64,000 bases of DNA, from assembly GCA_028703445.1 (NCBI GenBank), contig JAQVMW010000008.1, positions 6,223-70,222 of the forward strand. The letters run 5' to 3'. Shown piece by piece: positions 14,404-28,686 of this stretch. The notes below the pieces were generated by a model, which was given only the letters and a program-made list of their open reading frames with translations, had not been told where the DNA came from and did not search any database. Both the position numbers and the translations under genes were made by a program. Origin of the DNA: Candidatus Peribacteraceae bacterium. GTDB lineage: Bacteria; Patescibacteriota; Gracilibacteria; Peribacterales; Peribacteraceae. Numbering within the stretch: the stretch's first letter is position 1; every line of letters starts with the position of its first letter.

Positions 14404-14541
14404 GCTTTAGTTACAGTATTGTATAAAAGAGAATAGGCATACCCGACGGGAGGAGTTGACTCTCGGCATTGGCGGAAGTGTAAGGAAGAAACCTGCGCGA
14501 AACGATTGACGTTAAACTTGTATGCAGGGCTGGTTTCACTC

Positions 14542-15090
14542 ATGCTGGAGCCGATGCCGAATATCCTCCTCGTCACCGAAGACGGTACTCCGATGGGCAC
14601 GGCGGAGCGGGAAGCTGCGCACGCATCGCCCGGCATGTTGCACCGCGCTTTTTCTGTGTTCGTCTTCCGCGGTGGCCGTCAGGAACTGCTGATTCAGCAA
14701 CGAAGCAAAGAGAAGACTCTCTTCCCTCTTGTATGGGCCAATACCTGCTGCAGTCACTTGCGGGAAGGCGAAGTGCTCCCCGATGCGGCTCAAACAAGGC
14801 TCCACCAGGAACTCGGCTTCACCTGCCCGCTGAAAGAAATAGCTTCCTTCGTCTACCGCGCCGAAGATCCCGCAGGACGGGGCACGGAGTACGAGTACGA
14901 CACGATCCTCATCGGGAACATCCAGGGGAACCCGCCGCTCAAGCCAGACCCACAGGAAGTAGCCGCGACGAAATGGATCGCAACCGAGGAGCTGACAAAG
15001 GACATGCATGTGCACCCTCTGCTCTACGCGCCGTGGTTCCACTTGGCTCTTCCCATGGCAATGCGATGGCCACGAAAACTACACTATTAA
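14542..15090 (+). CDS. idi: Isopentenyl-diphosphate delta-isomerase, type 1 (Nudix fold)
   Basis: It carries LHRAFSVFVF...LLIQQRSKEKTLFPLVWANTCCSH and ...EYEYDTILIG. ATG 14542 is preferred over TTG 14506. Confidence 0.85.
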   Translation: MLEPMPNILLVTEDGTPMGTAEREAAHASPGMLHRAFSVFVFRGGRQELLIQQRSKEKTLFPLVWANTCCSHLREGEVLPDAAQTRLHQELGFTCPLKEIASFVYRAEDPAGRGTEYEYDTILIGNIQGNPPLKPDPQEVAATKWIATEELTKDMHVHPLLYAPWFHLALPMAMRWPRKLHY

Positions 15091-15182: not shown

Positions 15183-15968
15183 ATGTATCAATACTCCTCC
15201 GACGTGATTCCAGCACCATCCTCATCCTCCGGTCTTCACATCGCCATCATCCCCGACGGTAACCGCCGCTGGGCTCGGTCGCGCGCCTGGTATCCCTGGC
15301 AGGGCCACGAAAAGGCGATCAAGAACTTCCGCACGATCACCGACTGGTGCCAGGCCGATCCGCGCATCGCCGTGGTCACGGTCTGGTGCTTCTCGACTGA
15401 GAATTGGAAACGCGACCCGCAGGAAATCACGAAACTCATGAAGCTTCTGGAGAATTACCTTGAGAAAGAGCGACCCACATTCCAGAAGAAAGAGATCCGC
15501 CTGCTCCATTCGGGACGCAAAGACCGCATCCCCGCTTCCCTCTCGTCATTGATTCAGACCATTGAGGAAGAGACGAAACACTTCTCCGATTTCACCCTGC
15601 ACATTGCCCTCGATTACGGCGGCAAAGATGAAATCCTCCGAGCATGCTACCGTTCCCAACAAGCCAACCCTTCGACTTCGCTCAGGGCAGGCAAGCCAAC
15701 AACCGAACAAGCCAACAACCGAACAAGCCAACCAGCACACACGCACGATCAGGATTTCCTTCGTGCCTTCCTCGATCATCCCGAACTTCCGGACATCGAT
15801 CTCATCATCCGCACTTCCGGCGAGCAGCGGACGAGTAATTTCTTCCTCTGGCAGAGTACGTACGCCGAGTGGGTCTTTTTGGATACGTTCTTTCCGGACT
15901 TCACGACGGATGATCTAAAAAATGCCGTGGACGGCTTCGCGAAGCGTTCCCGACGATTCGGAGGATGA
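15183..15968 (+). CDS. uppS: Undecaprenyl/isoprenyl diphosphate synthase (cis-prenyltransferase) with a low-complexity insert
   Basis: It carries HIAIIPDGNRRWAR, DYGGKDEI and DLIIRTSGEQRTSNFFLWQSTYAEW. Residues encoded by 15654-15752 are repeat-derived. Confidence 0.9.
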   Translation: MYQYSSDVIPAPSSSSGLHIAIIPDGNRRWARSRAWYPWQGHEKAIKNFRTITDWCQADPRIAVVTVWCFSTENWKRDPQEITKLMKLLENYLEKERPTFQKKEIRLLHSGRKDRIPASLSSLIQTIEEETKHFSDFTLHIALDYGGKDEILRACYRSQQANPSTSLRAGKPTTEQANNRTSQPAHTHDQDFLRAFLDHPELPDIDLIIRTSGEQRTSNFFLWQSTYAEWVFLDTFFPDFTTDDLKNAVDGFAKRSRRFGG

Positions 15969-16089: not shown

Positions 16090-16260
16090 ATGAAGCACAC
16101 CGCCGTCGCACACGGCAAAATCATTCTCACCGGCGAATATGCTTTCGTGAAAGGCAAACCTACGGTTTTCCTTCCACGGACCATCCTTTCCCTCTATGGT
16201 ATCGCTCCAGCGCGGGAACCCGCGAGACCCGCGCTTCGCGATGGCTACTTTCATTTATGA
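16090..16260 (+). pseudogene. 57-codon ORF carrying only a mevalonate-kinase/GHMP N-terminal motif, followed by REP-like sequence
   Basis: MKHTAVAHGKIILTGEYAFVKGKP compares with the mvk N-terminus MKYSSVAHGKIILTGEYAVVFGHP. The nucleotides differ at many synonymous sites. A degenerate REP (ccagcgcgggaa...cccgcg) lies at 16207-16240. The stop overlaps the mvk ATG (ATGA). Confidence 0.5.
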
Positions 16261-17126
16261 AATATTCCTCCGTTGCGCATGGGAAGATCATATTGACCGG
16301 AGAGTATGCGGTTGTGTTTGGGCATCCCGGCATCGCCGTTCCCGCTCCCCTCGCCATGCAGGCAACCTTCGAGGAGAACGCTGCAAGTCGTGACCTCACG
16401 CTCAAGTGGCTGGGCATCAGCGGAGGGGAGGCATGGGAGGACTACGCGCGCAAGATCATCCTGCATGTGGAACAGGCAAAGAGCGCTTCCTTCCGCGGGA
16501 CGCTGACGATCCGTAACCAGCTGCCCTTGAAGAAAGGCATGGGTTCCAGTACCGCACTCGTGATCGCACTCACACGCTGTCTGCTCGGACAGGGAAAGCG
16601 TATCGAAGCCCTCGCGATCGAAGATGCGATGAACCCGGGACACAGCGGCATCGACTTCGCCGTGATCTGGGAGGAACGGCCGCTCTACTTTAGAAAAGGG
16701 CAGGAGCCGCAAGTCATCACCCTGTCCCCGCATCTGCTCAGGGGAGCACTTCTGGTGGATACCGGCACGCCCGACCAAACAACACCAGAGCTCGTTTCGT
16801 GGGTGAAGGAGCGGACAGACGATCCTCGTGTGAAACAAGCCCTGATTAACATTGGGAAATGCACGGAGAGGCTCCGGAAGGGCGAAGACATCCGTACGGT
16901 CTTCCGCGATCATCACCGGTCCCAAGTGGCTCTGGGAGTCGTCCCGAAGCCCGTGCAGATTCTCATCAAAGAGATCGAGCGGCTGGGCGGAGCGGCCAAA
17001 GTGCTGGGAGCGGGCGGCAGGACAGGTGGCGGAGGAACGGTGCTCGCGCTCCACAAGAATCCTGATCTCATCCTGCCGGTCATTCGGAAGAATGCGCGTG
17101 GATTTTTGCCGCTATTCCATCTCTAG
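16257..17126 (+). CDS. mvk: Mevalonate kinase (GHMP family)
   Basis: It has the N-terminal motif HGKIILTGEYAVVFGHPGIAVP and the GHMP phosphate-binding motif KGMGSSTA. The 289 aa length fits. Confidence 0.85.
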   Translation: MKYSSVAHGKIILTGEYAVVFGHPGIAVPAPLAMQATFEENAASRDLTLKWLGISGGEAWEDYARKIILHVEQAKSASFRGTLTIRNQLPLKKGMGSSTALVIALTRCLLGQGKRIEALAIEDAMNPGHSGIDFAVIWEERPLYFRKGQEPQVITLSPHLLRGALLVDTGTPDQTTPELVSWVKERTDDPRVKQALINIGKCTERLRKGEDIRTVFRDHHRSQVALGVVPKPVQILIKEIERLGGAAKVLGAGGRTGGGGTVLALHKNPDLILPVIRKNARGFLPLFHL

Positions 17127-17896
17127 GAAAACTTTGGCGCTCCCATGAGTTGCCTCAATTTTTCAATGATGATACCGCGTTTTTCTTTGTACCATGAGAC
17201 GAGATTCTCCATCTGAACTCGAGCCTTTTCCTCATCTGCCGAGACCGAAGCTTGATTACCCGTTGCCTGCGAAAGTGAATGCTGAGCGTTAGTCAAAATC
17301 CTCGCCATGCGCCATGCTTCACACTCCTCATTGAGATCGGGGCTTCCAATCGTTGCCAAAATCTTCATCGCAGTTTCATGAATGAGACGGGAAACGAAAT
17401 GCTCCCCCGCCCCACTCCTGAAAAGCTCCTCCTGCTCACGATTCAAAACAAATCTCGAATCTGTCCCAATCATCCGTTCCACCGCAACTTGGAGATCTGA
17501 ATATCGAACCTGAAGGGGATCAATGAGTCCTTCCGCATCTGAAACAATGCGAATGAGGCGCCGCTCTGTATCTGTCTGAATGAGCAACATGTGCGAACAG
17601 ATAACATCCCCGGCTCTCTCCAAGAGAACATCCATACTGATCCCTCTCGTCGCCATTGCCTTCGACATGTTCGGTTCGAGAGCTCTCTCAAGCTCCGCTG
17701 CAGGGAAACGCAGCGTTTGAGAACGAGCGAATGCAACCGCATCGAAATCCTCCTTGATTGCATTGACCCTCGCCGCCGCCTCAAGTAATTCTTTGAAATC
17801 CAGCAAAGGAGAAAATGGGAAAAGGGTCTGGCAGTATAGAAAAAAACCACTATTCTGAAAGGAGTTTCCCTCACTTTTTGTGCGCTCCAAAGCCAT
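17123..17896 (-). CDS. Hypothetical protein, lower-GC, antisense-oriented inside the mevalonate cluster
   Basis: The ORF runs 17123-18118, but its upstream third overlaps mvaD, so it was trimmed to ATG 17896. It still overlaps the mvaD start by 17 nt, so the true start is uncertain. No recognisable motifs. Confidence 0.35.
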   Translation of the reverse strand: MALERTKSEGNSFQNSGFFLYCQTLFPFSPLLDFKELLEAAARVNAIKEDFDAVAFARSQTLRFPAAELERALEPNMSKAMATRGISMDVLLERAGDVICSHMLLIQTDTERRLIRIVSDAEGLIDPLQVRYSDLQVAVERMIGTDSRFVLNREQEELFRSGAGEHFVSRLIHETAMKILATIGSPDLNEECEAWRMARILTNAQHSLSQATGNQASVSADEEKARVQMENLVSWYKEKRGIIIEKLRQLMGAPKFS

Positions 17897-18890
17897 TTCC
17901 ACGCCCAATATCGCCTTCATCAAGTACTGGGGCAACCGCAATGATGAACTCCGGCTGCCCATGGCCCCCTCCCTCTCGATGACTCTGGACCGGCCGACAG
18001 TGAAAATCACCGTGGAAGATGCGGACACATTTTCGGTGCGCTCGTTCCTCGTCGATGGATCGGAGAAAACACTCAAAGAGAAAGACATCGATCGTTTTCG
18101 GAAAGTCGTTACGCTCATGCGACGCTATTTGGGAACCATCGGCGCCGAGGATGTGCTTTCGGAATCCATCGCAATCGCCGTCCGTTCACACATTCCGCCA
18201 GCAGTCGGTCTCGCCTCCTCCGCTGCCGTCTTCAGCTGCCTCGCAAAAGCGATTGCCGGATTCATTCGTGAAAAAAAGGAGCTCACGAACAAACAGGTGA
18301 GTATCCTTGCCCGGCTCGGATCTGGTTCGGCGGCACGGAGCATCTTTGGAGGGTTCTCAACACTCGAAGAAGGGAACGGGATGGAGATAGAAAATTCCTG
18401 GAGTGAGCAAATCGCCGACGAACATCACTGGGCTCTGTACGACTTCGTGACAATTCCTGCAATGGAAGAGAAGAAAGTGGGATCCACGGAGGGCCACGCT
18501 TCGTCTCATTCAAGCCCTTTCTATACGGAGCGCGTGCAAGCTATCCGCTCGCGCCGCCAGCGGGAGTGCATCGAAGCGATCCGGACAAAAGATTTTGAAG
18601 CACTCCAGCGCGTGACGGAGGAAGACTGCCTCGACATGCACCATGTGATGCAGACGCAGATGCCTCCGCTCCAGTACCTCAATGCGGAAACGCATCGGAT
18701 CGTCGATGCCATTAAAGAATTACGCACGAAGGAGCATCTGCCAGTGCTCTTCACCATGGATGCGGGACCAACAGTCCACCTGGTATGTCCAGAAGAGGGC
18801 AGATCAGCCGTTCTCTCCTTCGCCCATGCACAGAAGGGATGCACGATCTTCGAAACGAAAGTGGGATCTGGTGCATCGCTGATCGGATAA
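17880..18890 (+). CDS. mvaD: Diphosphomevalonate (or phosphomevalonate) decarboxylase, GHMP family
   Basis: It carries NIAFIKYWGNRN, GLASSAA and GSGSAARS. It starts at GTG, with gaaaggag upstream. Confidence 0.85.
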   Translation: MRSKAISTPNIAFIKYWGNRNDELRLPMAPSLSMTLDRPTVKITVEDADTFSVRSFLVDGSEKTLKEKDIDRFRKVVTLMRRYLGTIGAEDVLSESIAIAVRSHIPPAVGLASSAAVFSCLAKAIAGFIREKKELTNKQVSILARLGSGSAARSIFGGFSTLEEGNGMEIENSWSEQIADEHHWALYDFVTIPAMEEKKVGSTEGHASSHSSPFYTERVQAIRSRRQRECIEAIRTKDFEALQRVTEEDCLDMHHVMQTQMPPLQYLNAETHRIVDAIKELRTKEHLPVLFTMDAGPTVHLVCPEEGRSAVLSFAHAQKGCTIFETKVGSGASLIG

Positions 18891-18944: not shown

Positions 18945-20216
18945 ATGGATCTCCGTTCCCTTCCTGCCGGCCTGAATCCTGAAGAGCACTGCCGCGAACG
19001 GCGGGCGCGGGTCGAGAACGAAACAGTAACGGACCTTTCGCTCCTCCACACCGATGCCGGACGAATCGGTCAGGCCGACGAGAAGAATTGCGAGCAGATG
19101 ATCGGCTCTGTTCCCCTCCCCGTCGGCATCGCCGGTCCGCTCGCGATTACCTTCAGCTCCGGCGAAAAATCCAACGTCTTCCTTCCTCTTGCCACAACCG
19201 AGGCGGCACTTGTCGCGAGCGTCAATCGCGGATGCAAAGTTCTGTCGACAAGCGGAGGCGTTTCGATAAAATCCGTCTACCATGGCATGTCCCGATCGCT
19301 AGTATTCAAGCCAAAAAACAAGAAAGGACAAACGTTCACCTCCGCAATCAAAACTCTGGAACAAGAATGGAAACGTATCGGCGAGGCGACGAGCGCACAT
19401 CTCAAAATTCTCCGTTACGATCTCGATGAGTCCGACGGCTACACCTTCCTCACGATCTTCTGCGACACCTCGGAGGCCATGGGCATGAACATGACGACGA
19501 TCGCCGCACAAGCCATCGGCAATTTCCTTGCTCAAGAGCTTGATGCCGATCTCATCACCATTGCGGCAAACGTCGACAGCGACAAGAAGCCGAGCAGCCG
19601 CACGCACGACCGCGGCCGGGGATACGAAGTCACCGCGAAAGCGGATATTCCTTCTTCGATCATCGCGAATGTGTTGAAGACGACACCGCAGCAGTTGTGC
19701 GCCGTCGCGGACGCCAAGTTGCGCGTCGGATCCGCACTCGCAGGAGCCATCGGAAGTAATTTGCATGTGGCCAACGTGATCGCGGCTCTGTACCTGGCAA
19801 CGGGACAGGACGGCGCACACGTGGTGGAAGGATCGCTGGCGGATACGAAAATCGTGCCTTTGTGGACCTCTCCCCCACCTCCATCTCCTCCCCCGGTGGG
19901 GGAGGAGCGTCCCTTGATCCCCCTTCCCCCTCCGGGGGAAGGGTTGGGGATGGGGAAGAAACTTGCAGGCATACGAATAGAAGTCCGCCTGCCCGCCCTC
20001 CTCGTCGGCGTTCGCGGCGGCGGAACGGCTCTGCCTGCCCAAAATCAGTGCCTTTCGCTCATCTTAAAACCGCAACGCGGGATGCTTCCCGCGCTGCGGC
20101 GACCGCAGCAACTCGCGGAAACGATCGGCGCGGCCGTCCTCGCCGGGGAATTGAGTCTGCTCGCGGCACAGGCGACACAAACGCTTGCGTCTTCGCACAA
20201 AAAACTGGCACGGTGA
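18945..20216 (+). CDS. hmgA: HMG-CoA reductase, class I type, with an in-frame repeat-derived insertion
   Basis: It carries ENCIG-like EKNCEQMIGSVPLPVGIAGPL, EAALVASVNRGCK, SEAMGMNM, LVGVRGGGT and AVLAGELSL. Confidence 0.9.
   Translation: MDLRSLPAGLNPEEHCRERRARVENETVTDLSLLHTDAGRIGQADEKNCEQMIGSVPLPVGIAGPLAITFSSGEKSNVFLPLATTEAALVASVNRGCKVLSTSGGVSIKSVYHGMSRSLVFKPKNKKGQTFTSAIKTLEQEWKRIGEATSAHLKILRYDLDESDGYTFLTIFCDTSEAMGMNMTTIAAQAIGNFLAQELDADLITIAANVDSDKKPSSRTHDRGRGYEVTAKADIPSSIIANVLKTTPQQLCAVADAKLRVGSALAGAIGSNLHVANVIAALYLATGQDGAHVVEGSLADTKIVPLWTSPPPPSPPPVGEERPLIPLPPPGEGLGMGKKLAGIRIEVRLPALLVGVRGGGTALPAQNQCLSLILKPQRGMLPALRRPQQLAETIGAAVLAGELSLLAAQATQTLASSHKKLAR
19885..19943 (+). repeat. Two tandem C/T-rich-stem hairpins (CCCCTTCCYC-N5-GRGGAAGGGG family) inside the hmgA coding sequence
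   Basis: The first is ctcctcccc cggtg ggggaggag (19885-19907). The second is cccttcccc ctccg ggggaaggg (19921-19943). Relatives lie at 24932-24956, 32098-32120, 32159-32183, 39496-39547 and 39942-39979. Confidence 0.75.
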
Positions 20217-20296: not shown

Positions 20297-20817
20297 CCAG
20301 CGCGGGAAGCTTCCCGCGCTGGAATAGGACAGGAATGATAGATACCCATGACCCAGCGGCACCCTATTCAGAACGGACAGATGATGCTCGTAACAACGAA
20401 CACATGTAACCGCATGCGAATCTTCGTGGATTCCGCTTGCGCACGTCAAGTCATCGAAAGCCTGTACCGTGCACAATTGCATCATCCATTCTTTCTCCAT
20501 GGATTTGTCGTCATGCCGGATCACTGCCACATACTGCTCCATATTCCGGAAAACGGTTCCATCTCAAAAATCATGTATTGCTTCAAGCGATCTGTGTGCT
20601 TTGAGGTGGGAAAACCGATCTGGCAACGACGATTCCATGTCCGTCTTGTCGACAATGCATGGGAAGCTTTGCGTTACATCCACCTGAATCCAGTACGGCA
20701 AGGCATCTGCGAAGCGCCAGCAGATTATCCATGGTCATCCGCTTCTGGACGATGGGATGTCACTGATCTTTCAGAATGGTAATACAACCCAGCGCACGAA
20801 GCTTCGTGCGCTGGGTT
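20297..20817 (+). mobile_element. REP - RAYT - REP unit (REPtron-like)
   Basis: The Y1 transposase gene is flanked by GC-rich palindromes with an AAGCTT core. These lie at 20297-20322 (ccagcgcgggaagcttcccgcgctgg) and 20786-20817 (aacccagcgcacgaagcttcgtgcgctgggtt). Confidence 0.7.
20348..20782 (+). CDS. REP-associated tyrosine transposase (RAYT; IS200/IS605 Y1 HUH family)
   Basis: It has the HUH motif in VVMPDHCHILLH and the catalytic Tyr context ALRYIHLNPVRQG. The 144 aa length fits. Confidence 0.8.
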   Translation: MTQRHPIQNGQMMLVTTNTCNRMRIFVDSACARQVIESLYRAQLHHPFFLHGFVVMPDHCHILLHIPENGSISKIMYCFKRSVCFEVGKPIWQRRFHVRLVDNAWEALRYIHLNPVRQGICEAPADYPWSSASGRWDVTDLSEW

Positions 20818-20836
20818 TCTATGGCATACTGGCTAC

Positions 20837-22640: not shown

Positions 22641-23711
22641 ATGCCTTCTCCTCGCTCCGCCATCGGCACGTCGATCGCGACCGACAGTGCCATCGTCGGC
22701 TTCGGCATGTACATCCCCAGTAATCGCATCACGGTCGAAGAAATCGCGAAGCATTGGGGGCGTGACCCGAAGGAAATCGTGAGCGGACTCGGCGTGAAAG
22801 AAAAAGCAGTCGCGGGAGCCGATGAAGACAGCTTCACGCTCGCGTTCGAAGCCGGAAAGCAGGCCATCGCAACGGCGGGCATCCGCTCTTCGGAAATCTC
22901 GGCGATCTTCGCCGGTTCCGAATCTCACCCCTACGCGGTCAAACCCACAAGCGGCATGCTGGCCGCCGCCCTCGACCTGCACCCGTTCTCGTTCTGCGCG
23001 GACCTGGAATTCGCCTGCAAGGCGGGTACGGCCGGACTGCAGATCGTGGATGCCTTCGTCCGCAGCGGACAGATCACCTATGGAATGGCCATCGGTACGG
23101 ACAAAGCGCAATCGAAACCCGGTGACGCACTGGAATACACCGCAGCCGCGGGAGCGGCGGCGATTGTGGTCGGATCAGACACCTCCGAACACGCCATCTG
23201 CCGCATCGAACACACCATTTCCTTCACGACCGACACTCCCGACTTCTGGCGTACCGCGGATGCTCCCTATCCCGCCCACGCGGGGCGCTTCACGGGGGAA
23301 CCGGGCTACTTCCTGCACGTGCGCCAGGCTCTCACCGGAATCCTCGACATCACGAAAACGAAATTGAGTGACGTCGATCACGTCGTGCTGCACATGCCAA
23401 ACGCCAAGTTTCCGAACAAGATCGCCAAGGAATTCAAGATCTCAAAGGAGCAGATGCAGACCGGATTCATCGTGCCTCAGATCGGCAACACCTACAGCGC
23501 CTGCTCTCTGCTCGGACTCGTGTACGTGCTGAAACAGGCGAAGAAACATCAGAAGATCCTGCTCGTTTCGTACGGATCGGGTGCGGGGGCTGACGCCTTC
23601 CTGCTCACGATGCTCCGCGATGGCCCCGTTCTGCCCGTAGATGAGCGAAAACTTCGCTACATTTCCTACGGAGAGTACCGCAGAAATACGGAGAAAACAG
23701 CGGTTTCGTGA
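22641..23711 (+). CDS. HMG-CoA synthase, archaeal-type (thiolase-fold condensing enzyme)
   Basis: It carries GFGMYIPSNRITVEEIAKHWGRD, SESHPYAVKPTSGMLAAAL and DLEFACKAGTAGLQ. ATG 22641 is preferred. Confidence 0.8.
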   Translation: MPSPRSAIGTSIATDSAIVGFGMYIPSNRITVEEIAKHWGRDPKEIVSGLGVKEKAVAGADEDSFTLAFEAGKQAIATAGIRSSEISAIFAGSESHPYAVKPTSGMLAAALDLHPFSFCADLEFACKAGTAGLQIVDAFVRSGQITYGMAIGTDKAQSKPGDALEYTAAAGAAAIVVGSDTSEHAICRIEHTISFTTDTPDFWRTADAPYPAHAGRFTGEPGYFLHVRQALTGILDITKTKLSDVDHVVLHMPNAKFPNKIAKEFKISKEQMQTGFIVPQIGNTYSACSLLGLVYVLKQAKKHQKILLVSYGSGAGADAFLLTMLRDGPVLPVDERKLRYISYGEYRRNTEKTAVS

Positions 23712-23746: not shown

Positions 23747-24856
23747 ATGCAAAAGAACATCTCGCTTATTGGAATCGGCCAGACCACATTCGGGGAATGG
23801 TGGGGCAAGAGCCTCTTCACCCTCATCGAGGAGGCAGTGGATAGCGCCATTACGTCCGCCCCCTGCTCAGCACTGGATATCGACTTCATCATCGTGGCCA
23901 ACATGCTCGGAGAAGTAGTGAACGGTCAGGCACATCTGGGCGCAATCGCCTCCTCCCTGCTCCCCCATCACCCTCCCGCCATCCGCGTGGAGGCAGCCTG
24001 CGCTTCGGGATCGATTGCGGTACACACTGCCTGCGCTTTACTCGAGAGCGGACGCGCCGAGACCGTGCTCGTGGTGGGAGCTGAAAAGATGACCGATGCC
24101 TCCGGCGACGAAATCCAAACCGCGCTCATGGGCGCGGCAGACAGCGAGAAAGATGCTCCTTGCGGCCTCACCTTCCCCGGCATTTTCGGGCTCGTCGCGC
24201 GCCGGTACATGCACGAGTACGGCCTCACCCGTGACCAACTCAACCTCGTAAGTGCGCGGCACCACCTCAATGCCCTTAAAAATCCCTTCGCGCAGTTCCG
24301 GCAGGAAATCAGACCGGATCAGATCGGCGCGAGCACGATCGTGGCGGATCCCCTGCGACTCCTTGATTGTTCCCCGGTGAGCGACGGAGCAGCCGCCTGC
24401 ATCCTCTCGACAAAACACCGCTCCCCTATCCGCATCGCTGCCTCTCAGACGAGCACCGATTCCGTGAGCATCACTGACCGACCCACGCTCACCTCCTTCG
24501 CCGCCACCAAGGATGCTGTTGAGCGCGCGCTGGATGAGGCAAATATCTCGACGAGCGATATCGCGCACGTTGAACTGCATGACTGTTTCTCGATTGCCGC
24601 GGTCATTGCGCTGGAGGACATGGGGTTTGCGGAACCCGGCGAGGGAATTCAATGGTATGAGAAATTGCAATCCATGACCGTGAATGCCAGCGGAGGACTG
24701 AAGGCCTGCGGACATCCGGTCGCGGCAACGGGCATTAAACAGATCATCGATGTCAGTAAGCAACTGCAGAACTCCGGTAAACGTTTCGGTCTCGCCCACA
24801 ACTTTGGCGGCGTTGGCGCCACATGCTGTATCCACATTCTGCATCACTCCCCATAA
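23747..24856 (+). CDS. Acetyl-CoA acetyltransferase (archaeal-type thiolase)
   Basis: It carries ISLIGIGQTTFGEWW, the catalytic-Cys context VEAACASGS and the C-terminal NFGGVGATC. Confidence 0.8.
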   Translation: MQKNISLIGIGQTTFGEWWGKSLFTLIEEAVDSAITSAPCSALDIDFIIVANMLGEVVNGQAHLGAIASSLLPHHPPAIRVEAACASGSIAVHTACALLESGRAETVLVVGAEKMTDASGDEIQTALMGAADSEKDAPCGLTFPGIFGLVARRYMHEYGLTRDQLNLVSARHHLNALKNPFAQFRQEIRPDQIGASTIVADPLRLLDCSPVSDGAAACILSTKHRSPIRIAASQTSTDSVSITDRPTLTSFAATKDAVERALDEANISTSDIAHVELHDCFSIAAVIALEDMGFAEPGEGIQWYEKLQSMTVNASGGLKACGHPVAATGIKQIIDVSKQLQNSGKRFGLAHNFGGVGATCCIHILHHSP

Positions 24857-25007
24857 ATAATGCGATTGAACAACACCTTCAATCTCCGGCTCCTTCGCTA
24901 TTACCAACTGCCTCTGTTCGATTCCATGTCTCCTCTCCACCCGGAGGGGGGAGAGGGTAGGGTGAGGGGGCAAAAGACAAGAAAAGCATCATCTATTCCC
25001 CAAAACC

Positions 25008-25940
25008 ATGCATACTCCTGACTCCCCCGCCGTCACTGCGCGCTCCCTGGCCCGCCAAAAAAACCGCATGCTTCCAGGCACGTTGCTCTCCTTCACCACC
25101 GTCACCCATCCGCCCAAGGGATTTCCGGATCGCCCGCGCCTGATCGGGCTTATCGAACTCATGGATGGGCAGCGTGTCCTTGGAACACTCGCAGGAGTCA
25201 TGGAACCGAAGATCGGGCAGATGGTGATTCCGCGCATGCACTTGAGCCGCGTGAACGCAGAGGGATTGCGCCTGTACGAAATCGCCTACGAACTCACGGA
25301 GCGTGTGCGCGAACCGGAATCTGAAACAAAGAAATTCCCCGGATACATCCTCGCGCTCACGGGTCCGTCGGGCGTGGGCAAGACCACGGTCTCGCTGCTC
25401 CTGACGAAAATGCTCAGCGATTTCACAACCAAAGTACCCATCGTCACGAGCCGTTCTCCGAAGGAAGGTGATGATCAGGAGTACGACTATGTCACTCCAA
25501 AAGAATTTGAGCGAATGGAGAAGGGCGGAGCACTCGTCGCATGGACACATCTGCCCTCGGACTCAGAACAACGCTCCTACGGATATCGCAAAGCAGATAT
25601 TCTGGCAATTTGGGAGCAGGGCAAGCTGCCGGTCGTGGTGACGGAAATGCATCTGCTGCAGGGACTTGCCGGGCACTATGGACGTCGCTCCATCCTCTCG
25701 TTCGGACTGCTGCCGCCGGGCGAGAGCAAGCGCGCCATGCTCAGCCACCTGCTGCACCGCATGCGTGCCCGAGGTCGCGAAACCGACGCTCAGATCGAGG
25801 AGCGGCTGCTCAATGCCCAGGCGGATTTGGACTACTTCACACGCGCCGCGCACCTGTTCGATTTTGTCCTTGTCAATGAGGATTTGGACGCCGTACTGCA
25901 GGTCATCAAGGGCCATGTTTTGGAGCTTGCGAAAGCCTAG
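25008..25940 (+). CDS. Fusion protein: DUF35-type OB-fold domain (no zinc ribbon) plus guanylate-kinase-like P-loop kinase
   Basis: The N-terminal part is GTLLSFTTVTHPPKGFPDRPRLIGLIELMDGQRVLGTL...IGQMVIP (DUF35 OB pattern). The C-terminal part is ILALTGPSGVGKTT, TSRSPKEGDDQEYDYV and SYGY (Gmk-like). Confidence 0.65.
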   Translation: MHTPDSPAVTARSLARQKNRMLPGTLLSFTTVTHPPKGFPDRPRLIGLIELMDGQRVLGTLAGVMEPKIGQMVIPRMHLSRVNAEGLRLYEIAYELTERVREPESETKKFPGYILALTGPSGVGKTTVSLLLTKMLSDFTTKVPIVTSRSPKEGDDQEYDYVTPKEFERMEKGGALVAWTHLPSDSEQRSYGYRKADILAIWEQGKLPVVVTEMHLLQGLAGHYGRRSILSFGLLPPGESKRAMLSHLLHRMRARGRETDAQIEERLLNAQADLDYFTRAAHLFDFVLVNEDLDAVLQVIKGHVLELAKA

Positions 25941-26052: not shown

Positions 26053-27270
26053 ATGTCATTCCATTCACTTATGTTCGGCTGGGAATACCCCCCGCGTCAC
26101 CTGGGTGGGCTTGGCGTGGCCTGCCAGGGACTCATTCGGGGACTCGTGAACCAGAATGTGAAGGTCACACTGGTGCTGCCGTTCGCCGCCGACGGATCGG
26201 AAGATCAAATCGACATCCTCTGCCCACAGGAGCATCACATCCAGAAGATCCGGGTCGCCAGTCTCCTGCTCCCCTACGATTCCGCCGAGCTCTACGCACA
26301 GCGCATCCAGTCCATCCCGCGTGAAACGGCGCAGATCTACGGCGCAGACCTCGGCCATGCCGTCCATGTGTTCACCGAAACAAGTGTTGAAGTGACGAAG
26401 CATCTTCAGCCCGACATCGTGCATGCGCACGATTGGATGACCTACGAAGCGGGACTCCGTTCGGCGCGCCACCACGGCAAGCCCCTCGTCACACACATCC
26501 ACGCTACGGAACTGGATCGCACGCATTTCCATCCCAACGAGTGGATCTACGGACGCGAGCGGTGGGCATTTGAACAGGCGGATCACGTCATCGCCGTGAG
26601 TAATTACACAAAAAATATCCTGGTGCAGCATTACGGAATCAATCCGGATAAGATTTCCGTCGTGCACAACGGCAGTGACGAAACTTATCACGCCGATACG
26701 GCGCCGACACAGATCACACCCATGTCCGGAAAGAAAAACCCGATGGTGCTCTTCCTCGGACGCCTCACGATTCAAAAAGGCCCGATGCACTTCCTGGAAA
26801 TGGCATCCATGGTGCACCGGCACGATCCGGACGTGCAGTTCGTTATCGCGGGAGACGGCCACATGTTCCCCTCTCTCGTCCATCAGGCAGTCAAACTCGG
26901 ACTGCAGGATTGCATCGTCTTCGCAGGGAAAGTTTCGAGCGACGAGGCGCGAAAACTCTACACGCAGGCAAGTTGTTTCGTGATGCCGTCGCTCTCGGAG
27001 CCCTTCGGACTCGTGGCACTGGAAGCAATCGCCCAAGGAACTCCTGTCATCCTGAGTAAGCAATCCGGGGCGAGCGAAGTGATCGGACACGCCTTCAAGG
27101 TGGATTTCTGGGATACCGAAAAAATGGCGGACTGCGTACTCACGATCCTCCGCGAGACACCGCTTGCCTCTCAACTGACAGCCGAAGCCCCGCGCGTGCT
27201 GCAGCGTCTGACGTGGGAGAACCAGGCAGACAAAGTCGTCTCGATTTACAAAAATCTGCTCCATTCCTAA
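26053..27270 (+). CDS. Glycosyltransferase family 4 / GT-B, glycogen (alpha-glucan) synthase-like
   Basis: It carries FGWEYPPRHLGGLGVACQGL and the C-terminal EPFGLVALEA motif. The 405 aa length fits. Confidence 0.8.
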   Translation: MSFHSLMFGWEYPPRHLGGLGVACQGLIRGLVNQNVKVTLVLPFAADGSEDQIDILCPQEHHIQKIRVASLLLPYDSAELYAQRIQSIPRETAQIYGADLGHAVHVFTETSVEVTKHLQPDIVHAHDWMTYEAGLRSARHHGKPLVTHIHATELDRTHFHPNEWIYGRERWAFEQADHVIAVSNYTKNILVQHYGINPDKISVVHNGSDETYHADTAPTQITPMSGKKNPMVLFLGRLTIQKGPMHFLEMASMVHRHDPDVQFVIAGDGHMFPSLVHQAVKLGLQDCIVFAGKVSSDEARKLYTQASCFVMPSLSEPFGLVALEAIAQGTPVILSKQSGASEVIGHAFKVDFWDTEKMADCVLTILRETPLASQLTAEAPRVLQRLTWENQADKVVSIYKNLLHS

Positions 27271-27310
27271 TCCCCCTACGCCCTAATCCTAACCCTAACC
27301 CCTAACCCTC
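27266..27310 (+). repeat. Telomere-like CCCTAA-type tract between GT4 and GH57
   Basis: The sequence is cctaatccccctacgccctaatcctaaccctaacccctaaccctc. The GT4 TAA stop lies inside the first unit. Confidence 0.7.
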
Positions 27311-27316
27311 AATAAA

Positions 27317-28684
27317 ATGCCTCCCCGCATCTGCCTCTACTTCCAGATCCATCAGCCGTACCGACTCCGCGATCTTCGGATCACGGAAATCGGGAAGGGA
27401 AAAACCATGGACTACTTTGACCACGACAAGAACCGTTCGGTCTTCCGCAAGGTCGCCGAAAAGTGTTACCTGCCGGCGAACCGCCTGATGCTCTCACTGC
27501 TGCAGCAGTATCCGGATTTCCAAATCGCCTACTCGCTCTCGGGCGTCTTTTTGGATCAGTGCGAGGAGTACGGACAGGATGTCCTCGAGAGTTTTCAGCG
27601 CCTCGCCAAGACGGGCAGAGTGGAATTCCTCGCCGAAACATACTATCACTCGCTCTCATCCATTCAGGATACGGAGGAATTCTGCGAGCAGACCACGCTG
27701 CACATCCGCAAGATCGAGGATCTGTTCGGGATGACCCCGACAGTCTTCCGGAATACGGAACTCATCTACTCGAATGAGCTGGCCCAGACGGCGCGACTGA
27801 TGGGATTCAAGGGCATTCTCGCCGAAGGCACCGATCATCTCCTGCAGGGGCGAAGCGCGAATCTGCCCTATACGCCTCCGCGGTTCCGTCTTCCACGCAG
27901 GAAGGAAATGCTCATTGCCCGGCACCGCCCGCTGCCGCAGAGATCGGAAAATATTTCCGTCCTGCTCAAGAACTATCGTCTCTCCGACGATGTGGCTTTC
28001 CGCTTCTCGGACAAAAGTTGGGTGGGCTTCCCGCTCAATGCGGAAAACTTCACCGACTGGCTGCTCGGCGGCGGCGGACACAGCGTGAACTTGTTCATGG
28101 ATTACGAAACCTTCGGCGAACACCAGTGGGAAGACACCGGCATCTTCGAATTCCTCGCAACGCTCCCTCACATCTGGCAGGAACGCGGCATCACGTGCGC
28201 CACACCCTCTCAGGTGATCAATGCCTGGAAACACACCGATGCCCCTGTCTACGACGCACATAATGTCATCTCATGGGCCGACACCGAACGCGATCTCTCG
28301 GCATGGCAGGGCAATCAGATCCAAACCTCCGCGCTCAAGGCCATCCATGCTCTGGGGCCGCTGGTGAAAGCCACGGGAAATCCCGATCTCCTCCGCATAT
28401 GGCGCAAATTGCAAACATCCGACCACTTCTACTACATGTGCACCAAGTACTGGAACGACGGCGACGTGCACAAGTACTTCAGTCCCTATGACTCTCCCTA
28501 TGAAGCCTATCGTCGCTACAGTCATGCGCTCTGTGATCTGAAAATGCGCGTGGAACCCGTAAAGGCGTCCCGGCGGGACGCCTCAACCAAAAACATAAAG
28601 ACATCCCGACGGGACGTCTCAAACAAACAGCACACAGCACACAGCAACCGTCCTAAGTCCCAATCCCCAATCCCTAATCCCTAA
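27317..28684 (+). CDS. Glycoside hydrolase family 57 (alpha-amylase/branching-enzyme-like) with a repeat-derived C-terminal tail
   Basis: It has the N-terminal ICLYFQIHQPYRLR motif. The last ~45 codons (about 28555-28684) are translated hairpin and CCCTAA repeats. Confidence 0.85.
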   Translation: MPPRICLYFQIHQPYRLRDLRITEIGKGKTMDYFDHDKNRSVFRKVAEKCYLPANRLMLSLLQQYPDFQIAYSLSGVFLDQCEEYGQDVLESFQRLAKTGRVEFLAETYYHSLSSIQDTEEFCEQTTLHIRKIEDLFGMTPTVFRNTELIYSNELAQTARLMGFKGILAEGTDHLLQGRSANLPYTPPRFRLPRRKEMLIARHRPLPQRSENISVLLKNYRLSDDVAFRFSDKSWVGFPLNAENFTDWLLGGGGHSVNLFMDYETFGEHQWEDTGIFEFLATLPHIWQERGITCATPSQVINAWKHTDAPVYDAHNVISWADTERDLSAWQGNQIQTSALKAIHALGPLVKATGNPDLLRIWRKLQTSDHFYYMCTKYWNDGDVHKYFSPYDSPYEAYRRYSHALCDLKMRVEPVKASRRDASTKNIKTSRRDVSNKQHTAHSNRPKSQSPIPNP

Positions 28685-28686
28685 AA

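What the first reader, a model, noticed from the sequence alone, without database searches (positions are those of the whole stretch)
25008..25940. DUF35 OB-fold fused to a guanylate-kinase-like P-loop kinase at the end of a mevalonate cluster that lacks phosphomevalonate kinase
The cluster encodes HMGS (22641-23711) and thiolase (23747-24856), followed by this ORF. Its first ~100 aa match the OB-fold half of DUF35 proteins (GTLLSFTTVTHPPKGF...LIGLIELMDGQRVLGTL...IGQMVIP) but lack the usual zinc ribbon.

In archaea, DUF35 proteins are known to scaffold the thiolase/HMGS complex. Here the domain is fused to a complete NMP-kinase fold (GPSGVGKTT; TSRSPKEGD..YDYV; SYGY).

The window contains mvk and a decarboxylase but no GHMP-type PMK. 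Animal PMKs are P-loop NMP-kinase-fold enzymes.

There are two readings. One is a bona fide Gmk that happens to be fused; the GMP-binding-like residues look largely conserved, which favours this. The other is a recruited kinase acting on phosphomevalonate or isopentenyl phosphate and tethered to the pathway complex.
Basis: partly seen in the sequence, partly recalled or inferred. Interest (0 to 1): 0.6.

Follow-up and report, generated by a model that had tools for sequence, protein, structure and literature searches.

The report
Scaffold domain fused to isoprenoid kinase
The last gene of this tiny bacterium's mevalonate operon joins the docking domain of the first two pathway enzymes to a guanylate-kinase look-alike that no longer reads guanine; it is the best candidate for the pathway's missing last kinase (isopentenyl phosphate to isopentenyl diphosphate), a step no enzyme of this fold is known to perform.

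Summary
ORF 25008-25940 (+), 310 aa, is a DUF35-type OB fold without a zinc ribbon, fused to a guanylate-kinase (Gmk) fold P-loop kinase. It lies directly after archaeal-type HMG-CoA synthase and thiolase in a Peribacterales (CPR) genome.

It is not the cell's Gmk:
- A separate housekeeping gmk exists in this genome and in nearly all 121 genomes sampled from the order.
- The guanine-contact residues are replaced, while the P-loop, lid arginines and acceptor-phosphate residues are kept.

The genome has no MEP marker (IspH), no GHMP phosphomevalonate kinase, no animal-type PMK and no amino-acid-kinase IPK. Its decarboxylase carries the Asn and His specificity residues of the solved Anaerolinea phosphomevalonate decarboxylase, so the step left open is isopentenyl phosphate to IPP.

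Comparative evidence agrees:
- A sister lineage has a classical IPK in the same operon.
- Unfused kinase relatives lie beside undecaprenyl-diphosphate synthase in contigs without mevalonate genes.
- In 9 of 10 genomes that replaced the decarboxylase with another type plus an extra mevalonate kinase, only the kinase domain has decayed.

Best reading, about 0.6: a non-orthologous IPK tethered to the thiolase/HMGS complex. No biochemistry exists. This scan reached the same reading before on orthologues in at least seven other genomes.

The parts
25008..25940 (+). Fusion gene (310 aa): DUF35-type OB docking domain plus a diverged guanylate-kinase-fold kinase
   Evidence: Open frame. Pfam PF01796 and PF00625. 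Orthologues of 87-44% identity over the full length in 85 genomes of the order. AF2 model with mean pLDDT 90.7.
25077..25307 (+). OB-fold domain (residues about 24-100), preceded by one helix (residues 8-20); no zinc ribbon
   Evidence: PF01796 at residues 24-73. Beta strands at residues 24-100 in the model. Match to the ChsH2 DUF35 OB fold of 6OK1_B. No Cys in residues 1-110. Predicted to dock on the thiolase: ipSAE 0.82 against a best control of 0.58.
25341..25922 (+). Kinase domain (residues about 112-305), Gmk fold
   Evidence: PF00625. Foldseek best match is yeast Gmk 1GKY, TM 0.89 on the target. TIGR03263 gives only 77 bits against a cut-off of 160.45. Residue table.
25362..25388 (+). 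P-loop GPSGVGKTT (residues 119-127)
   Evidence: G119, P120, G122, V123 and G124 are invariant, and K125 and T127 nearly invariant, across 76 family members.
24857..25007 (.). 151-nt spacer between thiolase and the fusion gene, with a G+C-rich hairpin at about 24929-24960
   Evidence: Sequence. Fold -46.7 kcal/mol, z -1.5, not significant. No terminator-like site on the + strand and no promoter-like site. In close relatives the two genes abut or overlap.
23747..24856 (+). Archaeal-type acetoacetyl-CoA thiolase, predicted docking partner of the OB domain
   Evidence: NF004720 379 bits and NF053570 342 bits. The HDxF motif is invariant in alignment A3. HMGS-thiolase-fusion order holds in the 28 of 30 loci that reach far enough; the other two are cut by a contig end.
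22641..23711 (+). Archaeal-type HMG-CoA synthase
   Evidence: NF003274 431 bits and TIGR00748 379 bits, both above cut-off. Start supported by orthologues.
18945..20216 (+). Class I HMG-CoA reductase
   Evidence: PF00368, E 1e-86.
17880..18890 (+). Decarboxylase of the phosphomevalonate-decarboxylase (PMD) type; its product would be isopentenyl phosphate
   Evidence: The best solved relative is 6N0X/6N0Y, Anaerolinea thermophila PMD (172 bits, against at most 135 for the diphosphomevalonate decarboxylases). It shares KYWGNR (Asn), STEGHA (His) and Arg at the Ile27 position. The engineered 6N0Z and the DMDs have Lys and Met at the first two. The criteria come from PMC3857490 Table 4 and PMC9254496. 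The signature is invariant in 26 type-1 orthologues.
16257..17126 (+). Diverged GHMP kinase, the probable mevalonate kinase
   Evidence: TIGR00549 94 bits (below cut-off) against TIGR01220 PMK 20 bits. It is one of only two GHMP genes in the genome.
15183..15968 (+). Undecaprenyl-diphosphate synthase (cis-prenyltransferase), the consumer of IPP
   Evidence: PF01255, E 1.5e-67. This is the gene most often found beside the unfused kinase relatives.
14506..15090 (+). Type 1 IPP isomerase
   Evidence: NF002995 155 bits and TIGR02150 118 bits, both above cut-off.

Best explanation
The gene encodes a two-part protein.

The N-terminal part is the OB half of a DUF35 protein. DUF35 is the small subunit that holds the archaeal-type thiolase/HMG-CoA synthase complex together. 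I infer that it still docks on the thiolase.

The C-terminal part descends from guanylate kinase. It keeps everything needed to transfer the gamma-phosphate of ATP onto a phosphate-monoester acceptor: the P-loop, the lid arginines, and the Arg/Lys/Tyr/Tyr acceptor-phosphate site. It has replaced the guanine-reading residues with aliphatic and aromatic ones and gained two conserved insertions.

I infer that it phosphorylates isopentenyl phosphate to isopentenyl diphosphate. That would complete a haloarchaea/Chloroflexi-type mevalonate route in an organism with no amino-acid-kinase-family IPK: mevalonate kinase, then phosphomevalonate decarboxylase, then IP kinase.

Shown: domain architecture, residue pattern, gene content, synteny and co-variation across genomes. 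Inferred: the substrate, catalysis and physical tethering.
For: 1. It is not the housekeeping Gmk.
- A second gmk lies at G000:C11:9622-10182 (130 bits).
- In 121 genomes of the order, 120 have a TIGR03263 match. The stand-alone gmk scores 118-148 bits (one outlier at 252 bits, in G113) and is listed for genomes with and without the fusion. The fusion is the second, weaker hit at about 80-95 bits.

2. Residues, comparing 137 family members with 78 Gmks and the yeast 1GKY alignment.
- Kept: K125, R149, K152 (Arg in Gmk), Y159, Y191, R251, R255, R266.
- Changed at the guanine contacts: Ser to I145, Glu to A178, Thr/Ser to Y193, Asp to E213. Also changed: Gly to L216 in the conserved Gly of that strand.
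- New conserved insertions at 183-190 (with E187 and R189) and at 238-245.

3. The pathway has a gap.
- No IspH, the one MEP-pathway gene searched.
- Only two GHMP genes.
- The only AAK-family gene is bacterial PyrH.
- No PF04275.

4. The gap is the IP kinase step. The decarboxylase has the PMD determinants Asn, His and Arg, identical to 6N0X and unlike 6N0Z and the DMDs.

5. Distribution.
- 87 of 121 genomes have the kinase. The 85 fused copies all lie in genomes with the thiolase and GHMP genes, directly after the thiolase wherever the coordinates were compared.
- The two unfused copies (G008, G100) are in genomes without GHMP kinases or HMGR.

6. Slot equivalence. The complete sister-family genome G489 has IDI, decarboxylase, AAK IPK, MVK and HMGR together. 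It has two GHMP genes, no DUF35 OB domain and a single Gmk.

7. Unfused relatives lie beside UPPS and/or IDI, in contigs that show no mevalonate genes (the contig has His_Phos_1 but no UPPS called). They keep the family signature residues.

8. A natural experiment.
- In 10 genomes the PMD-type decarboxylase is replaced by a different type, with a canonical MVK added in those where the contig reaches that far.
- In 9 of these 10, the kinase keeps only 6-10 of 14 key residues.
- All 57 other loci keep at least 12 of 14.
- Conservation of the OB domain is unchanged (92.7% against 93.7%), while that of the kinase domain falls (82.4% against 96.0%).

9. Docking. Predicted complex of OB residues 1-108 with HMGS and thiolase: ipSAE 0.82, best control 0.58. 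That mark was reached by 58 of 80 solved complexes and 2 of 110 mismatched pairs. The runs agree in at least 80% of contacts, and partner pLDDT is at least 76.
Against: - There is no biochemical evidence for any member of the family.
- G008 (99% complete, 5 contigs) keeps an intact unfused kinase next to secY/adk. It has no IDI, UPPS, HMGR or GHMP genes, though it does have MiaA, a DMAPP user.
- G053 has the replacement decarboxylase and still an intact kinase.
- G001 has an intact kinase but no decarboxylase at all.
- The PMD assignment rests on sequence determinants taken from one solved enzyme and one modelling study.
- The type-2 decarboxylase is not shown to be a diphosphomevalonate decarboxylase. 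It keeps the His and the Arg27-like residue.
- Tethering the last kinase to the first two enzymes has no obvious kinetic logic. The fusion may simply reflect gene adjacency.
- The complex prediction may pass by memory of the solved archaeal complex.
- The genomes are related, so the counts are not independent.
Confidence: 0.6

Rival explanations
1. The kinase is a non-orthologous phosphomevalonate kinase (mevalonate 5-phosphate to mevalonate 5-diphosphate), and the decarboxylase is a classical diphosphomevalonate decarboxylase.
For: - The chemistry is the same: a phosphomonoester is turned into a diphosphate.
- No GHMP PMK is present.
- The decarboxylase passes TIGR01240 'diphosphomevalonate decarboxylase' (206 bits against a cut-off of 171).
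- The 2016 Peribacteria paper lists mevalonate-5P to mevalonate-5PP as the step not identified (PMC4736985).
- Animal PMK shows that a P-loop kinase can do this (established knowledge).
Against: - The decarboxylase has Asn and His where the DMDs and the engineered 6N0Z have Lys and Met. It is 37 bits closer to the solved PMD than to any DMD.
- Unfused kinase copies persist beside UPPS/IDI in genomes and contigs without any decarboxylase.
- Kinase decay goes with replacement of the decarboxylase by another type, not only with the gain of one kinase.
- The sister lineage fills the slot with an IPK, not a PMK.
Confidence: 0.13
2. It is a working guanylate (or other nucleoside monophosphate) kinase that happens to be fused to DUF35. 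It would be a second Gmk with no role in isoprenoid synthesis.
For: - Gmk fold, TM 0.89 to yeast Gmk.
- Best family hits are guanylate kinase models.
- Catalytic residues are intact.
- In G008 the unfused copy lies next to adk and secY.
Against: - A separate gmk is present in this genome and across the order.
- The guanine contacts Ser34, Glu69, Ser80 and Asp100 (yeast numbering) are Ile, Ala, Tyr and Glu, and are conserved as such in the family.
- The fusion occurs only with mevalonate genes: 85 of 85 fused copies.
- It decays when the lower pathway is exchanged. A nucleotide kinase would not do that.
Confidence: 0.05
3. The kinase domain acts on another acceptor, or is mainly regulatory. Possible acceptors are dimethylallyl or longer prenyl monophosphates for salvage, or a sugar phosphate of envelope glycan synthesis. 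As a regulator it would be a nucleotide-sensing module controlling the thiolase/HMGS complex.
For: - Unfused relatives are translationally coupled to a histidine-phosphatase-family gene. They lie among WecG, UDP-GlcNAc 2-epimerase and Wzy-like genes as well as UPPS.
- G008 has the kinase without UPPS or IDI.
- PhnN shows that the Gmk fold can take a sugar phosphate (TIGR02322 weak hit; established knowledge).
- Fusion to the entry complex of the pathway would suit a regulator.
Against: - The full catalytic set is conserved under strong constraint in 57 loci, which argues for catalysis.
- The specific link to the PMD-type decarboxylase is not explained by a glycan role.
- The pathway would still lack its last kinase.
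Confidence: 0.2

Closest known systems
Guanylate kinase (Gmk/Guk1, EC 2.7.4.8; PF00625, TIGR03263; yeast 1GKY)
   Same: Same fold (Foldseek TM 0.89 on 1GKY). Same P-loop, lid arginines and acceptor-phosphate residues (Arg38, Tyr50 and Tyr78 in yeast numbering). Same chemistry class: ATP plus a phosphomonoester gives a diphosphate.
   Different: - The guanine contacts are replaced by Ile, Ala, Tyr and Glu.
- There are two family-specific insertions.
- TIGR03263 scores 77 bits against a cut-off of 160.
- It is a paralogue beside a separate housekeeping gmk.
- It is fused to an OB domain.
- It is tied to mevalonate genes.
DUF35 subunit of the archaeal HMGS/thiolase/DUF35 complex (PF01796 plus the rubredoxin-like PF12172; Vogeli 2018, PMC5879682; PMC12960953)
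   Same: OB fold of the same Pfam family. It is encoded directly after archaeal-type HMGS and thiolase. The thiolase keeps the HDxF motif. A complex model places the OB domain on the thiolase.
   Different: The N-terminal zinc ribbon is missing (no Cys) and a single helix stands in its place. A 200-residue kinase is attached at the C terminus. It is the only PF01796 gene in the genome.
Isopentenyl phosphate kinase (IPK, EC 2.7.4.26; amino-acid-kinase family, PF00696, NF040647)
   Same: The proposed reaction and pathway position, after a phosphomevalonate decarboxylase. A sister-lineage operon has an AAK IPK in the equivalent gene set.
   Different: The fold is unrelated: P-loop Gmk against amino-acid kinase. 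This would be a functional analogue, not a member. The activity is untested.
PhnN, ribose 1,5-bisphosphate phosphokinase (Gmk-fold; TIGR02322)
   Same: A precedent for a Gmk-fold enzyme that has lost nucleotide specificity and turns a non-nucleotide phosphomonoester into a diphosphate (established knowledge). There is a weak hit of 27 bits.
   Different: Far below the cut-off of 156 bits. The context is not phosphonate metabolism. The acceptor-site residues differ.
Animal-type phosphomevalonate kinase (PF04275, P-loop NMP-kinase-like)
   Same: A P-loop kinase recruited to the lower mevalonate pathway, independently of the GHMP family.
   Different: No sequence match. The fold matches are all Gmk. 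The probable substrate differs: IP, not mevalonate 5-phosphate.

Membership tests
Guanylate kinase (functional Gmk, TIGR03263 equivalog) | Gmk fold with P-loop and lid arginines | tested here: met
   PF00625, E 1e-11. 1GKY TM 0.89. K125, R251, R255 and R266 conserved.
Guanylate kinase (functional Gmk, TIGR03263 equivalog) | Score at or above the curated equivalog cut-off | tested here: not met
   77 bits against 160.45. Caveat: the order's housekeeping gmk also falls short (118-148 bits). The gap between the two classes is the more informative result.
Guanylate kinase (functional Gmk, TIGR03263 equivalog) | Guanine-contact residues (yeast Ser34, Glu69, Ser80, Asp100) | tested here: not met
   I145, A178, Y193 and E213, each conserved in the family, against Ser, Glu, Thr/Ser and Asp in 78 Gmks.
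Guanylate kinase (functional Gmk, TIGR03263 equivalog) | It is the genome's gmk | tested here: not met
   A separate gmk lies on C11. The same holds across the order.
DUF35 scaffold of the thiolase/HMGS complex | C-terminal OB fold (PF01796) | tested here: met
   36 bits against a cut-off of 27.1. 6OK1_B match. Beta strands at residues 24-100.
DUF35 scaffold of the thiolase/HMGS complex | N-terminal rubredoxin-like zinc ribbon (4 Cys) | tested here: not met
   No Cys in residues 1-110. Only a helix at residues 8-20.
DUF35 scaffold of the thiolase/HMGS complex | Encoded with archaeal-type thiolase and HMGS | tested here: met
   The order HMGS-thiolase-fusion holds in all 30 loci where the contig allows. 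All 85 fused copies are in genomes with the thiolase.
DUF35 scaffold of the thiolase/HMGS complex | Binds the thiolase/HMGS pair | tested here: inconclusive
   The model supports binding: ipSAE 0.82 against a best control of 0.58. That mark was reached by 58 of 80 solved complexes and 2 of 110 mismatched pairs. A like complex is solved, so the pass may be from memory. A pull-down is needed.
Isopentenyl phosphate kinase (AAK family) | Amino-acid-kinase fold (PF00696 / NF040647) | tested here: not met
   The fold is Gmk. The only AAK gene in the genome is PyrH. Not a member; at most a functional analogue.
Isopentenyl phosphate kinase (AAK family) | Catalyses IP + ATP to IPP + ADP | not testable with these tools
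   Inferred from the pathway gap, the decarboxylase type and comparative genomics only.
Animal-type phosphomevalonate kinase (PF04275) | Sequence or fold membership | tested here: not met
   No PF04275 match in the genome at E up to 1. The 50 listed Foldseek matches are guanylate kinases, plus one MAGUK GK-domain entry (4WSI).
PhnN ribose 1,5-bisphosphokinase (TIGR02322) | Score at or above the cut-off | tested here: not met
   27 bits against 156.

The most novel reading that the evidence does not exclude
A previously undescribed class of isopentenyl phosphate kinase, built on the guanylate-kinase fold. It would be ancestral as a stand-alone enzyme beside UPPS in some CPR bacteria. In Peribacterales it is fused to the DUF35 docking domain, so that the last kinase of a PMD-type mevalonate pathway rides on the thiolase/HMG-CoA synthase complex. 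In lineages that later switched to another decarboxylase and an extra mevalonate kinase, the kinase half is turning into a pseudo-kinase while the docking half is kept.
Probability: 0.55. Interest if true: 0.8.

Novelty: new variant of a known kind. Interest (0 to 1): 0.7.

Why it matters
The 2016 description of complete Peribacteria genomes called their mevalonate pathway 'near-complete' (PMC4736985). Later surveys of CPR isoprenoid genes left the role of IPK open (PMC6107057). If this protein is the missing kinase, three things follow.

- It closes the only route to IPP in these organisms. IPP is needed for undecaprenyl phosphate and hence for their cell wall.
- It adds a third, unrelated enzyme type for the last phosphorylation steps of mevalonate pathways, beside GHMP kinases with animal PMK, and AAK-family IPK.
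- It gives a clean example of a nucleotide kinase re-tooled for a small lipid phosphate.

A compact soluble IP kinase would also interest builders of isopentenol-utilisation pathways.

For annotation, current pipelines name these proteins 'guanylate kinase' or 'OB-fold domain-containing protein'. This hides the pathway step and can inflate gmk counts.

Tried and rejected
- **Animal-type PMK.** PF04275 gave no hit in the genome. The analogy is only at the level of 'P-loop kinase'.
- **AAK IPK hidden elsewhere.** The single PF00696 gene is bacterial PyrH, next to frr.
- **A third GHMP gene in the 17126-17880 gap.** That stretch holds a minus-strand ORF of about 255 aa with no Pfam family. It is not a GHMP kinase.
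- **The 567-aa protein upstream of HMGS as the 'lost' zinc ribbon of DUF35.** It has only a weak treble-clef hit. Dropped.
- **Class-wide NF040647 search.** Noisy. No hit reached the cut-off, and most full-length hits in other families lie in genomes with a single GHMP gene. Only G489 was usable as a comparison.
- **MiaA as an explanation for the kinase-only genome G008.** MiaA is present in genomes both with and without the kinase, so it does not discriminate.
- **Thomas et al. 2019.** The paper could not be read. The N/K and H/M determinants were instead read from the two deposited sequences 6N0X and 6N0Z and from PMC9254496 and PMC3857490.
- **Spacer hairpin as a terminator.** Not supported.
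- **Not done.** I could not inspect the model's coordinates, so no pocket analysis or ligand docking was done. No RNA-seq check was run.
Full report
**1. What is there**

The ORF at 25008-25940 (+) is open and encodes 310 aa.
- Pfam finds the DUF35 OB fold (PF01796, residues 24-73) and a guanylate-kinase domain (PF00625, residues 116-301).
- The N-terminal 110 residues contain no cysteine, so the rubredoxin-like zinc ribbon of DUF35 proteins is missing.
- The OB part aligns to ChsH2(DUF35), 6OK1_B.
- An AlphaFold2 model built on 76 relatives is confident (mean pLDDT 90.7). It shows one helix, a beta barrel at residues 24-100, a short linker and an alpha/beta kinase domain.
- Foldseek matches the kinase domain to guanylate kinases, best to yeast Gmk with GMP (1GKY, TM 0.89 on the target).

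The gene closes a plus-strand cluster:

| Coordinates | Gene |
|---|---|
| 14506-15090 | IDI-1 |
| 15183-15968 | UPPS |
| 16257-17126 | GHMP kinase closest to mevalonate kinase |
| 17880-18890 | decarboxylase |
| 18945-20216 | HMGR |
| 22641-23711 | archaeal-type HMGS |
| 23747-24856 | thiolase |
| 25008-25940 | the fusion |

A RAYT-type transposase gene and a Cys-rich gene lie between HMGR and HMGS. Database names place the organism in Candidatus Peribacter / Peregrinibacteria, within the CPR. The genome is 1.37 Mb and 98.75% complete.

**2. It is not the cell's guanylate kinase**

- The genome has a second Gmk-family gene on contig C11. It is 217 aa and scores 130 bits on TIGR03263, against 77 bits for the fusion.
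- In 121 genomes sampled from the order, 120 have a TIGR03263 match. The stand-alone gmk scores 118-148 bits (one outlier at 252 bits), whether or not the genome has the fusion. The fusion appears as a second, weaker hit of about 80-95 bits.
- A search of 1.8 billion cluster representatives finds 21 clusters at E below 1e-30. These are fused and unfused members of this subfamily. Ordinary Gmks follow only from about 1e-21 to 1e-11.

Column by column, 137 family members compare with 78 Gmks as follows (mapped on yeast Gmk).
- Kept: the P-loop Lys (K125), R149 (yeast Arg38), K152 (Arg41), Y159 (Tyr50), Y191 (Tyr78) and the lid arginines R251, R255 and R266.
- Replaced, at the positions that read guanine: Ser34 to I145, Glu69 to A178, Ser80 to Y193, Asp100 to E213. 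The conserved Gly that follows is L216.
- Added: two insertions with conserved charged residues, at 183-190 (E187, R189) and at 238-245.

**3. Which step is missing**

- IspH, the one MEP-pathway gene searched, is not found.
- The genome has exactly two GHMP-family genes, the MVK-like gene and the decarboxylase.
- Its only amino-acid-kinase-family gene is bacterial PyrH, next to frr.
- PF04275 (animal PMK) finds nothing.

One phosphorylation is therefore unaccounted for. Whether it is PMK or IPK depends on the decarboxylase.

- The closest solved relative of the decarboxylase is 6N0X/6N0Y (172 bits). The best diphosphomevalonate decarboxylase scores 135 bits.
- PMC9254496 identifies the Anaerolinea thermophila structure of Thomas et al. 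2019 as a phosphomevalonate decarboxylase (PMD). It states that its specificity was changed to DMD by mutagenesis.
- In the printed alignments, wild-type 6N0X reads YWGN and GH. The variant 6N0Z reads YWGK and GM, as do the human, mouse and S. aureus DMDs. The window's enzyme reads YWGN and GH.
- It also fits the MPD column of Table 4 of Dellas et al. 2013: no Lys at position 21 and Arg at position 27 (PMC3857490).
- The signature KYWGNR / STEGHA / TMDAGP is invariant in 26 type-1 orthologues.

I conclude, by inference from these determinants, that the product is isopentenyl phosphate and that the missing enzyme is an IP kinase.

**4. Comparative genomics**

- *Confinement to the order.* In a 300-genome sample of the phylum, the fusion appears only in the window's own family. 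No claim here rests on the unpublished genome G272 flagged in that call.
- *Counts within the order.* 87 of 121 genomes have the kinase subfamily, 88 have GHMP kinases and 86 have the thiolase.
- *Fused copies.* All 85 are in genomes with the mevalonate genes, directly downstream of the thiolase wherever the coordinates were compared. The order HMGS-thiolase-fusion holds in all 30 fetched loci where the contig allows.
- *Apparent exceptions.* Three genomes have GHMP genes without a fusion hit: G016, whose contig ends inside the thiolase; G059, in 180 contigs; and G119, which has a single GHMP gene.
- *Unfused copies.* The two (G008, G100) are in genomes without GHMP kinases or HMGR. G100 keeps IDI, and has UPPS next to the kinase.
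- *Metagenomic unfused relatives.* All keep the signature residues.
  - IDI-UPPS-kinase.
  - UPPS, histidine phosphatase, kinase.
  - Kinase-UPPS.
  - Histidine phosphatase and kinase, with no UPPS called.
  - None of these contigs shows mevalonate genes. One short contig is uninformative.
- *Tree.* In a FastTree of the kinase domain, the subfamily is separate from Gmks, unfused forms are basal and the fused clade is derived. No support values were examined, so this is tentative.
- *Sister family.* The one-contig genome G489 has IDI, decarboxylase, an AAK-family IPK (111.7 bits on NF040647, just under the cut-off), MVK and HMGR together. It has two GHMP genes, no PF01796 and a single Gmk. The same gene set therefore uses an ordinary IPK where Peribacterales have the Gmk-like kinase.

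**5. A natural experiment**

Ten genomes of the order (G007, G027, G047, G053, G058, G068, G075, G077, G084, G096) carry a different lower-pathway module.
- A canonical MVK (TIGR00549 190-207 bits in the two scanned, above cut-off) is present in nine of the ten. In G096 the contig ends before it.
- A second type of decarboxylase is present: about 31% identity to type 1, KYMGRK or KYMGK in place of KYWGNR, and Asn in place of the catalytic Asp.
- This module replaces the PMD-type gene. The diverged MVK-like gene and the fusion remain.

I scored 14 catalytic and acceptor-site positions in each fusion.
- 9 of these 10 genomes keep only 6-10 of the 14, and the substitutions differ between lineages. 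G053 keeps all 14.
- All 57 other loci keep at least 12, and 50 keep all 14 (with L023 and L065 reassigned).
- Of those 57, 25 have a directly typed type-1 decarboxylase. The rest were typed by having two GHMP genes.

At columns at least 80% conserved in the ordinary loci:

| Domain | Ordinary loci | Replaced-module loci |
|---|---|---|
| OB domain | 93.7% | 92.7% |
| Kinase domain | 96.0% | 82.4% |

(The replaced-module averages are over 11 loci, because G075 was fetched twice.) Every decayed copy lies below the lowest ordinary one.

The consensus was defined on the ordinary loci, so the OB domain serves as the internal control. The docking half therefore stays under selection, while the kinase half is released exactly where the PMD-type decarboxylase is gone.

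Switching from MVK/PMD/IPK to MVK/PMK/DMD needs both a new kinase and a new decarboxylase, and makes both PMD and IPK dispensable. This fits the IPK reading better than the PMK reading. The activity of the type-2 decarboxylase is not known, and the genomes are related, so I treat this as strong circumstantial evidence only.

**6. The OB domain**

In archaea, HMGS, thiolase and a DUF35 protein (rubredoxin plus OB fold) form a complex that channels acetoacetyl-CoA (PMC12960953, citing Vogeli 2018, PMC5879682).
- Here the thiolase keeps the HDxF motif.
- The fusion is the only PF01796 gene in the genome.
- A complex prediction of OB residues 1-108 with HMGS and thiolase gave ipSAE 0.82 against a best control of 0.58. 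That mark was reached by 58 of 80 solved complexes and 2 of 110 mismatched pairs. The runs agree in at least 80% of contacts, and partner pLDDT is at least 76. The contacts are mainly with thiolase residues 118-156 and 197-203.
- A like complex is solved, so this shows likeness, not binding.
- The OB domain is absent exactly in the two genomes without thiolase and HMGS. This supports its role as the docking part.

**7. What does not fit**

- G008 has an intact unfused kinase next to secY/adk and none of IDI, UPPS, HMGR or GHMP. It does have MiaA, but so do genomes without the kinase.
- G001 has an intact fusion but no decarboxylase.
- G053 has the replacement module and an intact kinase.
- G060 has a type-2-like decarboxylase, a split MVK-like gene and an intact kinase.
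- The unfused forms are often translationally coupled to a histidine-phosphatase-family gene of unknown role.

These cases leave room for a broader or different acceptor, such as DMAP or longer prenyl phosphates.

**8. Literature and earlier notes**

Full-text searches found no paper linking DUF35, guanylate kinase and IPK, and none describing this protein. The 2016 Peribacteria paper reports a 'near-complete' mevalonate pathway without the step after mevalonate-5P.

This scan has met orthologues of this gene in at least seven other genomes, and earlier follow-ups reached the same reading. My result agrees with them but is not independent proof. I do not know whether those reports included the kinase-domain decay in type-B genomes, the G489 comparison or the 6N0X/6N0Z determinant match.

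**9. Verdict**

| Reading | Confidence |
|---|---|
| IP kinase | about 0.6 |
| PMK | about 0.13 |
| True NMP kinase | about 0.05 |
| Other acceptor or regulator | about 0.2 |

It is a new variant of a known kind of system: a mevalonate pathway with a non-orthologous terminal kinase, fused to the DUF35 scaffold. Interest 0.7.

Noticed in passing
L013:11870-13834 (G007), L014:10162-12398 (G084), and L072, L078-L083, L095: About 10 of 121 genomes of the order carry a canonical mevalonate kinase plus a second type of decarboxylase in place of the PMD-type gene. In this decarboxylase the catalytic Asp of the DAGP motif is Asn (TLNTGQ), and the Lys21 position is Arg or Lys. Its substrate is unknown.
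   Followed up: partly
L059 (G001:C1:32008-47395): A genome reported 100% complete has the whole cluster (IDI, UPPS, MVK-like, HMGR, HMGS, thiolase, intact fusion) but no decarboxylase. Only one GHMP gene is found in that genome, and only about 320 nt separate HMGR from the MVK-like gene.
   Followed up: no
L009:7490-8642, L050:5073-6187, L051:2710-3929, L052:719-1953: Unfused kinase relatives are translationally coupled to an upstream histidine-phosphatase-family (His_Phos_1) gene. UPPS, WecG, UDP-GlcNAc 2-epimerase and Wzy-like genes are often nearby. This is a conserved phosphatase-kinase pair of unknown role.
   Followed up: partly
window 17123-17890 (-): A minus-strand ORF of about 255 aa with no Pfam family lies between the MVK-like gene and the decarboxylase, opposite to the operon's direction. 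It was not examined further.
   Followed up: no
window 20348-22540: An IS200/RAYT-like transposase gene (PF01797) and a 567-aa protein with a C-terminal treble-clef zinc finger interrupt the operon between HMGR and HMGS. Earlier notes of the scan describe both.
   Followed up: no
G000:C11:9622-10182 and order-wide: The housekeeping guanylate kinase of this whole order scores 118-148 bits on TIGR03263, below the curated cut-off of 160.45. Only 1 of 121 genomes passes. Cut-off-based annotation would therefore miss gmk in these genomes.
   Followed up: partly
window 24929-24960: A G+C-rich hairpin (CTCCTCTCC / GGAGGGGGGAG) lies in the 151-nt spacer before the fusion gene. In close relatives the thiolase and fusion genes abut. 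It is not terminator-like, and its fold energy is not significant.
   Followed up: yes
window 26053-30735: Directly downstream lie a GT4 glycogen-synthase-like gene, a GH57 gene and a GH15 glucoamylase-like gene. The GT4 and GH57 genes are found next to the fusion in G007 as well.
   Followed up: no
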